DNA of 64,000 nt from Octopus sinensis (taxonomy: Eukaryota). The position numbers were made by a program, and so were the translations under genes. The notes beneath the pieces were generated by a model. The model searched no databases, was not told the origin of the DNA, and was given only the letters and a program-made list of their open reading frames with translations. The stretch is from assembly GCF_006345805.1 (NCBI RefSeq), contig NC_043009.1, positions 43,400,001 through 43,464,000 on the forward strand, given 5' to 3'. Below, one piece after another: positions 1,068 to 25,973 of this stretch (positions are counted from its first letter, which is position 1; the number at the start of each line of letters is the position of its first letter).

Positions 1068-1364
1068 AACAATTGCTGCGTGGAAAGTGTTTATAAGCCA
1101 TTTAAGAAACACACAAAACCGTTAGATTCACTTCAAAATTTAAGTTTAATTTGTCTAAATATTTTCGTCGCTTTGAGACCGCGACCTGTTCCCTGACAAG
1201 ATGCAGCACGATGTTTTGTCAATGAACAGGTCGCGGTTTTGTGTGAATCTAACGGTTTTGTGTGTTTCTTAAATAGCTTATAAACACCTTCCACGCTGCA
1301 ATTGTTTTTGTTCCAACACACGATCTCAGATCAAGTCACTCGCTATGCAAGTACATCTCCGTAA
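1068..1364. mobile_element. Fold-back (palindromic) Penelope-like/retrozyme-like element, family FB1, decayed copy
   Basis: Inverted arms 1068-1199 and about 1213-1306 (right arm has a ~40-nt deletion), plus a ~58-nt unique tail; (TA)n on both sides. Same start, centre and tail as 24263-24595. Confidence 0.8.
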
Positions 1365-22114: not shown

Positions 22115-22231
22115 AGCTTTTCTACCCTAGGCACAAGGCCTGAAATTTTGGGGGGAGGGGGCCAGTTGATTAAATCGATCCCAGTATGCAACTGGTACTT
22201 AATTTATCGACCCCTTACAATCAATACTACT

Positions 22232-22278
<47 letters not shown>

Positions 22279-22503
22279 TAATGACAATAATTTCAAATTT
22301 TGGTACAAGGCCAACAATTTTGGGTGACGGGGTAAGTTGATTACGTCAACCCCAGAGCTCAACTGGTTCATATTTTAATGACCCCTAAAAGAATGAAAGA
22401 TAAATTTGACAATGGCTAAATTTGAACTCGGAACATAGATATGGACAAAATGCCACTAAGCATTTTGCATGGCATGCTAACGATTCTGCCAGCTCACCAC
22501 CTT
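22115..22503 (-). mobile_element. SINE family A copy plus partial copy
   Basis: Reverse complement of GGTGAGCTGGCAGAATCGTTAG head at about 22500, with (TAA)n at the tail. Confidence 0.8.
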
Positions 22504-24262: not shown

Positions 24263-24595
24263 ACAATTGCAGCATGGAAGGTGTTGGTAAGCCATTTAGA
24301 AACACACAAAAGCCGTTCGATTCACTTCAACATTTAAGTTTAATTGTCAAGATATCTTCGTCGCTAAAATCCGCGACCTGTTCACTGACAAATGCAGCAC
24401 GGATTTTTGTCAGTGAACAGGTCGCGGATTTTAGCGACGAAAATATTTGACAAATTAAACTTAAATGTTGAAGTGAATCGAACGGCTTTCTGTGTGTTTC
24501 TTAAATGGCTTACAACACCTTCCACGCTGCAATTGTTTTCGTTTCAGCACACGATCTCAGATCAAATCACTTGCTATGCGAGTACATCTCCGTAA
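24263..24595. mobile_element. Fold-back element FB1 with twin variant hammerhead motifs (G3:C8 core)
   Basis: ~130-bp inverted arms (24263-24392 and 24406-24536) plus a ~60-nt tail, in (TA)n. Each arm reads TTTGTCA-GTGAACA-G-GTCGC-ggatttta-GCGAC-GAA-[palindrome]-TGACAA. Confidence 0.8.
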
Positions 24596-25159: not shown

Positions 25160-25930
25160 TGAGTTAAATTCTGCTGGGGTCAACTTTACCGTTCTTCCTT
25201 TTAAGCCTCATGAAATAAGTACCAGTTGAGTACTGACACCTAACCCTGAAAAATTTCAGTCTTTAATTCTATAGCAGAAGGGATCAGCAGGCTGGAGGTA
25301 TCATTAGCAGAACGGGCAAAATGCTTAGTGGTATTTCACCTGAGTTCAAATTTCGCCAAGGTAGACTTTGCCTTTCATCCTTTCAGGGTCAATAAATTAA
25401 GTACTAGTTGAGTACTGGGGTCAATGGGATCAACTATCCCCCTCTCTACAAAATCCAGGCCTGGTACCTATAGTAGAAAGGCTTGTTACCATCATCATCA
25501 TCATCATCATCATCCGAGCTGGCAGAAACGTTTGCATGCTGGGTGAAATCCTTAGCAGTATTTCGTCTGTCTTTACTTTCTGAGTTTAAACTCCGGGGTC
25601 GATAAATTAAGTACCAGTTGTACACTGGGGTCGATCTAATCGACTGACCCCCTCCCCCCAAATTTCGGGCCTTGTGCCTAGAGTAGAAAAGATTATTATT
25701 ATTACTATTATTATGCAAGGTGGCATGCTGGCAGAACCATTAGTACACCAGACGAAATGCTTAGTGGTATTTCACCCGTCATTATGTTCTGAGTTCAAAA
25801 TTCGCTGAGGTCGACTTTGCCTTTCATCCTATCGGGGTTGATTAAGTAAGTACCAGTTACACACTGGGGTCCATGTAATTGACTTTATCTCTTTCCCCAA
25901 ATTTTAGGCCTTGTGTCTACAGTAGAAAGT
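25160..25930 (+). mobile_element. Cluster of four head-to-tail SINE family A copies
   Basis: Repeated CTGGCAGAA.CGTTAG / GAGTTCAAA / AAGTACCAGTT / TAGTAGAAAG units separated by TTA or CAT tails. Confidence 0.8.
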
Positions 25931-25973
25931 ATTATTAATATTATTATTATTATTATTATCATTATTATTATTA

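What the first reader, a model, noticed from the sequence alone, without database searches (positions are those of the whole stretch)
24263..24595. Fold-back element carrying a hammerhead on each strand with a compensatory G3:C8 core
Seen: both arms read helix I TTTGTCA, core GTGAACA, an extra G, perfect stem II GTCGC/GCGAC, GAA, a palindromic helix III, then TGACAA (minus 24344-24392; plus 24406-24454). Helix III is AATATT in one arm and GATATC in the other, so the palindrome is kept. The plus arm is one T short at the cleavage site. Established: the HHR core is C3-U4-G5-A6-N7-G8-A9, C3 and G8 form a Watson-Crick pair, and a G3:C8 swap restores that pair; standard CUGANGA searches miss it. 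Penelope-like elements carry minimal HHRs with palindromic helix III thought to act as dimers. Inference: this is a non-autonomous Penelope-related family with a non-canonical ribozyme in both polarities, so sense and antisense transcripts could each self-cleave. The G15.1:C16.1 arm may be inactive.
Basis: partly seen in the sequence, partly recalled or inferred. Interest (0 to 1): 0.85.

Follow-up and report, generated by a model that had tools for sequence, protein, structure and literature searches.

The report
Penelope hammerhead with swapped core pair
This is two short, back-to-back end pieces of a still-intact Penelope-type jumping gene, and the whole family (over 6,000 matches in the genome) carries a hammerhead-shaped RNA with two paired core letters swapped, which is predicted but not shown to cut itself and which standard searches miss.

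Summary
The motifs are real and sit where described. The element is two 5'-truncated copies of the pseudo-LTR (pLTR) of an endonuclease-bearing Penelope-like element (PLE), joined head to head. A parent with an open 1,042-codon RT/GIY-YIG-type frame carries the same G3:C8 motif 920 nt behind its stop, so this is not a separate non-autonomous family. G3:C8 is family-wide (6,241 matches). The sister family has C3:G8, and related PLEs show all four Watson-Crick pairs at 3:8 (8 of 8 hits from a descriptor that left 3:8 free). That points to selection on the hammerhead fold. The both-strands idea fails. The inverted arm is a routine insertion product, a read-through RNA folds into a long hairpin that removes both motifs, GATATC is private to this copy, and both arms are damaged. 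Cleavage is unshown: copies do not start at the cut site more often than at a control site (27/4,013 vs 28/3,533). I found no natural G3:C8 hammerhead in the papers I could read, but two key papers were unavailable. The scan earlier noted two similar single motifs in other genomes.

The parts
24263..24392 (-). Inverted, 5'-truncated pLTR copy without the tail (starts 7 nt before G3, ends at the proximal 3' end class, about +125)
24344..24392 (-). Type I minimal hammerhead motif, G3 (24385):C8 (24380), inserted G (24378), private G15.1:C16.1 helix III; likely inactive
   Evidence: A15.1:U16.1 changes lower activity at least 10-fold per PMC3088659 passage
24392..24595 (+). Direct pLTR copy with tail; starts at the family's main 5'-end cluster (-21 from G3) and ends at the distal 3' end class (about +184)
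24406..24454 (+). Type I minimal hammerhead motif, G3 (24413):C8 (24418), inserted G (24420), stem II 5 bp, helix III AATATT; one T missing at the N17/1.1 step, so likely impaired
24505..24595 (+). First ~30 codons of the parent's RT/endonuclease frame (ATG at 24505; frameshifted in this copy)
   Evidence: locus L103 reads pLTR, tail and frame continuously; table 4 shows the missing base
24537..24592 (+). PLE 'tail': about 56 nt present on one arm only, between the two 3' end classes
   Evidence: 20 of 21 head-to-head pairs have one tailed and one untailed arm
1069..1364 (.). Second, more decayed head-to-head insertion of the same family in this window

Best explanation
The element is a head-to-head pair of truncated end repeats of an intact RT/GIY-YIG Penelope-like retrotransposon family whose hammerhead motif has G3:C8 fixed in place of C3:G8, and that motif is likely a slow ribozyme needing a dimer or the element's protein, while the two copies at this site are likely dead. 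Shown: parent frame, family-wide G3:C8, covariation at 3:8 across related elements, a cluster of 5' ends about 23 nt before G3, and two 3' end classes inside the first ~30 codons. Inferred: transcription starts in the pLTR at about -23, and the extra G before many copies is the copied cap. The protein nicks both strands of an AT-rich target and starts reverse transcription at two internal sites (about +125 and +184). Each cDNA runs to or near the RNA 5' end, and the two are joined head to head, giving a fold-back with a tail on one side. The template is mostly uncut RNA. Inferred and untested: the G3:C8 motif cleaves after U17 at low rate, through pairing of two AATATT palindromes and/or protein help, probably to process or regulate transcripts rather than to make the insertion template.
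For: Parent: L100 has a 1,042-codon open frame with a YVDD RT motif, C-x3-C-x2-C linker and C-terminal endonuclease, with the G3:C8 motif 919 nt after the stop. Pfam GIY-YIG scores 23.7 against a cut-off of 22.6 on the 363-aa C-terminal part of L063. Family: 5,358 and 6,241 genome matches; 78 of 80 sampled copies that cover the core have G3:C8. Sister family (57% aa, support 100/100): 2,943 matches with C3:G8 and compensatory changes in helix I, stem II and helix III. A descriptor leaving 3:8 free hit 8 of 15 post-ORF regions (0.047 per shuffle round, max 2 in 300 rounds). All 8 are Watson-Crick at 3:8: C:G x3, U:A x2, A:U x2, G:C x1; 3 of 14 shuffle hits were. Recurrent subfamily variants fall on 0 of 42 motif positions against 11 of 140 others, three of them in loop II (p=0.07). 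Ends in 100 copies: 45 of 5' ends at -26 to -17; 11 of 14 at -23 preceded by a non-templated G; 3' ends at +123-129 (38) and +180-185 (49); 20 of 21 pairs have one end of each class. Literature: in a lizard PLE the C3G/G8C double mutant partly restores cleavage, the ribozyme needs the protein, uncut RNA is the insertion template, and the tail lies between two RT start sites (PMC11167929 passages).
Against: No cleavage was measured. Copies are not enriched for 5' ends at the cut site: 27 of 4,013 against 28 of 3,533 at a control site; by my reading about 19 against 12 after removing indel-like and microhomology cases. Most listed sister-family matches carry A9C (93 of 100; 5 are canonical), and L126 has U15.1:A16.1, so successful families tolerate core changes expected to lower activity. 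The descriptor was written after I had seen the motifs, and only the 3:8 column is free of its constraints. L134 and L137 are related, so the non-canonical states are about four events. Within-family conservation is only suggestive. Pfam gave no hit on the full 1,042-aa frame at E<=0.01 and only a sub-threshold RVT_1 hit on the sister family. The start at -23 also lies at a possible splice acceptor, so the cap reading is not the only one.
Confidence: 0.78

Rival explanations
1. Same element, but the motif no longer cuts. It is kept as an RNA fold for another job (protein binding, positioning of RT, or control of translation of the ATG 92 nt after G3), or it is drifting.
For: No excess of copies starting at the cut site. 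The sister family amplified to about 2,900 matches with A9C. Hammerhead mutants did not affect insertion in vitro in the lizard PLE. In-vitro activity of PLE hammerheads is low (PMC4209133).
Against: The 3:8 pair is a core tertiary pair of the hammerhead fold (PMC3088659 passage), and it stays Watson-Crick through several double changes. Decay would leave mismatches. G3:C8 has partial activity in engineered ribozymes.
Confidence: 0.3
2. One reading: a dedicated non-autonomous fold-back family whose sense and antisense transcripts each self-cleave.
For: Head-to-head copies are common (56 of 100 copies have an inverted piece at the 5' flank). Short copies begin at the likely transcription start, so some could be transcribed and remobilised in trans. 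Possible RNA assemblies hold the sequence (the RNA label is a guess).
Against: Junctions and arm lengths differ from copy to copy, so the fold-back is not a replicated unit. An autonomous parent exists. Read-through RNA buries both motifs. Both arms here are damaged, and GATATC is private.
Confidence: 0.06
3. A MITE-like DNA transposon with ~135-bp terminal inverted repeats and a chance hammerhead look-alike.
For: Inverted arms and TA-rich flanks.
Against: Variable 5' truncation, solo arms, continuity with an RT/endonuclease frame, and the motif at the same place in distant PLEs.
Confidence: 0.01

Closest known systems
Minimal type I hammerheads in pLTRs of metazoan Penelope-like elements (Cervera and de la Pena 2014, PMC4209133; read: main text parts 1-2 of 4, supplement parts 1-2 of 3)
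   Same: Position in the pLTR, one extra base between 9 and 10.1, G10.1:C11.1, palindromic helix III, mostly solo truncated copies, pairs on opposite strands a short way apart, natural U3:A8 variants.
   Different: G3:C8 core: none of the 56 representatives in their Fig. S3 has G at position 3. The inserted base is G in all 10 clade rows here, against a consensus H there. A3:U8 also appears in this clade.
PAc (Poseidon) element of Anolis carolinensis (Frangieh et al. 2024, PMC11167929; read: passages)
   Same: Tail set by two RT start sites inside the frame, AT-rich targets, both strands primed, uncut RNA as template; the engineered C3G/G8C double mutant is partly active.
   Different: Here G3:C8 is the natural, fixed state. 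The tail is about 56-60 nt rather than 30-40. The ATG lies after the ribozyme. The protein has the Cys linker that Penelope/Poseidon lacks.
Neptune/Nematis-type C-terminal EN+ PLEs (motifs as described in Craig et al. 2021, PMC8557442; read: passages)
   Same: [quoted passage not shown]
   Different: Clade not fixed by a tree with named references. DKG reads DKS here. The 3' UTR is long (about 0.9-1.9 kb) and rich in microsatellites.
Natural hammerhead core variants (Perreault et al. 2011, PMC3088659; read: passages)
   Same: Compensatory change at 3:8 (U3:A8) and U15.1:A16.1 occur naturally.
   Different: No G3:C8 or A3:U8 in the passages retrieved.
Non-LTR retrozymes (PMC7229834 passages; bioRxiv 10.64898/2026.07.22.740005, part 1 of 5)
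   Same: Short, non-coding, type I hammerhead, PLE-related.
   Different: Retrozymes are head-to-tail tandem arrays with circular RNAs; these copies are dispersed solo or head-to-head truncations of a coding parent.

Membership tests
EN+ Penelope-like element | Single frame with RT and C-terminal GIY-YIG endonuclease in the parent | tested here: met
   1,042-codon frame in L100 with YVDD; Pfam GIY-YIG above cut-off on the C-terminal part of L063; the full frame gave no Pfam hit, and the sister family a sub-threshold RVT_1 hit
EN+ Penelope-like element | pLTR at both ends of the frame (partial tandem), with hammerhead | tested here: met
   Motif behind the stop; pLTR runs into the frame start in L103; relative L129 has its motif both before and after the frame
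EN+ Penelope-like element | 5' truncation, inverted 5' copy, tail at one end | tested here: met
   20 of 21 pairs have one tailed and one untailed arm
Neptune/Nematis clade | CX2-5CxxC linker before GIY-YIG; (TA)n targeting | tested here: met
   C-x3-C-x2-C in the parent; TA-repeat flanks are the commonest sequence after the tail
Neptune/Nematis clade | RT phylogeny with named reference elements | not tested
   No named reference proteins were held; the tree has only this genome's two families and 13 metagenome rows
Type I minimal hammerhead ribozyme | U4 G5 A6, A9, G12 A13 A14, A15.1:U16.1, H17, stems I and II | tested here: met
   Family motif; helix I and stem II are the predicted monomer fold. 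Not met in this window's two arms (G15.1:C16.1; one T missing)
Type I minimal hammerhead ribozyme | C3 and G8 identity (canonical descriptor) | tested here: not met
   G3:C8 in 78 of 80 copies; no Rfam match in the window
Type I minimal hammerhead ribozyme | Watson-Crick pair between 3 and 8 | tested here: met
   10 of 10 rows, four pair types, permutation P=0.0001 with relatedness not corrected
Type I minimal hammerhead ribozyme | Self-cleavage after N17 | not testable with these tools
   Indirect genomic test negative; only contigs, no raw reads
Non-LTR retrozyme | Head-to-tail tandem monomers, no coding parent | tested here: not met
   Solo or head-to-head copies; coding parent
MITE / fold-back DNA transposon | Fixed terminal inverted repeats replicated as a unit | tested here: not met
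   Arm lengths and junctions differ among copies

The most novel reading that the evidence does not exclude
This is an active natural hammerhead with G3:C8, so far known to me only as a lab rescue mutant, fixed in a retrotransposon family of thousands of copies. It belongs to a PLE lineage whose hammerheads (inserted G, mostly 6-nt palindromic helix III) have sampled all four Watson-Crick pairs at 3:8, including A3:U8. Descriptor searches built on CUGANGA would then have missed many PLE ribozymes, possibly including some in clades reported to lack them.
Probability: 0.35. Interest if true: 0.72.

Novelty: new variant of a known kind. Interest (0 to 1): 0.52.

Why it matters
The 3:8 pair holds the residue that supplies the hammerhead's general acid. 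A swap was known to rescue activity only in part, and the natural covariation I found reported was U3:A8. A multi-thousand-copy family fixed for G3:C8, with a C3:G8 sister and U:A and A:U relatives, gives a natural series for testing what PLE hammerheads do, which is still open. It also shows that CUGANGA-based surveys undercount them. The copy ends independently match the recent two-start-site model of PLE insertion in a different PLE group. The fold-back itself is ordinary.

Tried and rejected
Rfam scan of the window: 0 matches. RNA evidence: no RNA holder listed. Four guessed-RNA contig sets cover the sequence, but contigs cannot show ends or strand, and no start/end pile-up was listed; not used as evidence. 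Fossil test for cleavage: 0 of 100 sampled 5' ends were called at +33 to +37 (one called at +30 is by eye a +36 start), and there is no genome-wide excess. The automatic class labels were unreliable, so I reread the 27 flanks by eye. GATATC as a subfamily marker: rejected, 1 genome match. A MAFFT alignment of 11 motifs did not align by structure, so pairs were counted by coordinates; no covariance model or R-scape test was run. The look-up of contigs that encode database proteins was closed, so flanks of the 147 protein relatives were not seen. Of 21 metagenome loci, 8 lacked the frame's 3' end and were left out of the motif count and tree. Of the 13 used, 7 gave a motif; L136 has only a degenerate one, and L132 and L138 have under 200 nt of 3' flank. 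The sister family was missed by the free descriptor because its helix III is not a perfect palindrome, and was added by hand. Literature: searches for G3C8, G3-C8, GUGANCA, A3-U8, A3U8, C3G/G8C and octopus + Penelope + hammerhead returned no natural G3:C8 case. Lunse, Weinberg and Breaker 2017 (PMC5785218), Martick and Scott 2006, Arkhipova et al. 2017 and a 2007 paper on 3:8 exchanges (identifier recalled) were not held, and any could already report it. Part 3 of the Cervera supplement and the supplements of Craig et al. 2021 were not read.

Full report
Observation. The two motifs are present at the stated coordinates and far above chance in the window (4 matches against 0.06 expected). The arms align over about 131 nt and meet at 24392, sharing one base. 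The right arm continues about 56 nt further. A second, more decayed fold-back of the same family lies at 1069-1364. Rfam finds nothing in the window. Neither arm matches the usual family motif. The plus arm lacks one T at the cleavage step. The minus arm has G15.1:C16.1, which with its flanks occurs once in the genome, here. At the roughly 1.5% per-site change seen in helix III, a fraction of one such double change is expected among some 6,000 copies by my estimate, so it says nothing about selection.

Family and parent. A 20-mer allowing either base at positions 3 and 8 has 5,358 exact genome matches, 95 of the first 100 listed being G3:C8 and none C3:G8. A looser G3:C8 pattern has 6,241. Some of the 30 best copies shared upstream sequence. 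Following it led through a microsatellite-rich 3' UTR into a frame with a Pfam GIY-YIG match. L100 holds a 1,042-codon open frame with YVDD, a C-x3-C-x2-C linker and the endonuclease, and the G3:C8 motif 919 nt after the stop. L103 shows the pLTR running through the tail into the start of that frame, with the ATG 92 nt after G3. The best named protein relative is from Octopus vulgaris at 58%, so the host is probably an octopus. By the motifs given in PMC8557442 (passages) the parent is a Neptune/Nematis-type element; this was not tested with named references.

How the fold-back arises. I took the first 100 of 3,955 matches to an anchor downstream of the ribozyme (all on contig C1). Of the 5' ends, 45 lie at -26 to -17 from G3. 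Fourteen are at -23, and 11 of these are preceded by a G where the element has C. I read this as the transcription start with a copied cap (the cap signature is recalled knowledge; PMC2377424 passages report an internal promoter in D. virilis Penelope). A splice acceptor at the same spot is an alternative. The 3' ends fall mainly in two classes, +123-129 (38) and +180-185 (49). Fifty-six copies have an inverted piece at the 5' flank, and 20 of 21 close head-to-head pairs have one arm of each class. This fits the lizard PLE work (PMC11167929 passages): two RT start sites inside the frame define the tail, and both target strands are cut and extended. Inverted 5' copies and one-sided tails are standard PLE features, and opposite-strand hammerhead pairs were noted in 2014. 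The fold-back is therefore an insertion product. On either strand a read-through RNA makes the antisense arm first, and the predicted hairpin of -209 or -220 kcal/mol leaves stem II at probability about 0.

Is the motif a real hammerhead? A sister family in the same genome (57% protein identity; support 100/100) has the motif at the same place with C3:G8 and compensatory changes at 2.3:1.3, 10.4:11.4 and 15.2:16.2. It has 2,943 matches; 93 of the first 100 have C at position 9 and 5 the canonical A. A metagenome scan gave 21 related loci, 13 reaching the end of the frame. A descriptor that left positions 3 and 8 free, written after I had seen the motifs, hit 8 of 15 post-frame regions (13 loci plus the two families), against 0.047 per round in 300 shuffles. 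All 8 pair at 3:8: C:G (L126, L127, L135), U:A (L128, L129), A:U (L134, L137) and G:C (this family). With two sister-family rows added by hand, 10 of 10 pair (permutation P=0.0001, not corrected for relatedness; the stem columns are circular because the descriptor required them). On the tree (15 rows) this family is sister to a C3:G8 family inside a clade that also holds C:G and U:A states, so G3:C8 is most simply derived. Within the family, recurrent variants avoid the 42 motif positions (0 against 11 of 140 elsewhere; p=0.07), and the free position N7 varies among the listed matches.

Does it cut? Not shown. Engineered G3:C8 is partly active, also in a PLE hammerhead. If cut RNA were copied into the genome, copies would start at +36. 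They do so in 27 of 4,013 cases, against 28 of 3,533 at a control site, or about 19 against 12 after I removed indel-like and microhomology cases by eye. That is no clear excess. It agrees with the report that uncut RNA is the insertion template, and it neither proves nor excludes cleavage. The monomer is predicted to form helix I and stem II but not helix III, as expected for a dimer-dependent motif. The common A9C in the sister family and U15.1:A16.1 in L126 suggest weak or relaxed catalysis. RNA data were limited to contigs of uncertain type.

Comparison and novelty. It works like, and by position and anatomy belongs to, the minimal PLE hammerheads of PMC4209133. It fails the canonical C3/G8 identity while keeping the pair. 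None of the 56 representatives in that paper's Fig. S3 has G3. The natural covariation reported there and in PMC3088659 (passages) is U3:A8. My searches found G3:C8 only as a mutant. The most relevant survey (Lunse et al. 2017) and Arkhipova et al. 2017 were not held, so priority is uncertain. Two earlier scan notes describe single G3:C8-like motifs behind PLE-type RT genes in other genomes; I did not check them.

Verdict. Observation confirmed, interpretation partly supported. The fold-back and the two-polarity idea are ordinary PLE insertion biology. The family-wide G3:C8 core, backed by cross-family covariation, is a credible new variant of a known ribozyme class whose activity is untested. 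Interest 0.52.

Noticed in passing
L137:1512 and L134:2810 (metagenome loci, + strand): Hammerhead-like motifs with A3:U8 and an ACATGT helix III behind related RT/EN frames; A3:U8 was not found in my literature searches. Helix I is weak in L134.
   Followed up: partly
L104:5400-5470 and sister-family copies; L128:2497: A9C appears in two lineages (most sister-family copies and L128). A minority of the sister family keeps A9 with C17, probably an older state.
   Followed up: partly
L126:4973: Motif with U15.1:A16.1 inside a perfect TAGCTA palindrome.
   Followed up: no
L136 about 2350-2400: Degenerate motif behind the frame with a 7-bp helix I and a GATATC palindrome but an altered core.
   Followed up: no
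L251, L254, L261, L262, L264, L267: Six head-to-head junctions fall exactly on the two strands of helix I, suggesting template switching guided by the ribozyme's own helix.
   Followed up: no
L007, L030, L014, L011 flanks: Apparent 10-13 bp target-site duplications in some insertions outside microsatellites (read by eye); none is discernible at this window's copy, which sits in TA repeats.
   Followed up: no
family pLTR, -45 to -21 from G3 (e.g. L013, L057): Branch-point-like and polypyrimidine-CAG sequence right at the main 5'-end cluster; could be an intron 3' end as in D. virilis Penelope, or an initiator.
   Followed up: partly
window 22119-22503 and 25166-25973: Several diverged copies of another dispersed repeat, direct and inverted; not identified.
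   Followed up: no
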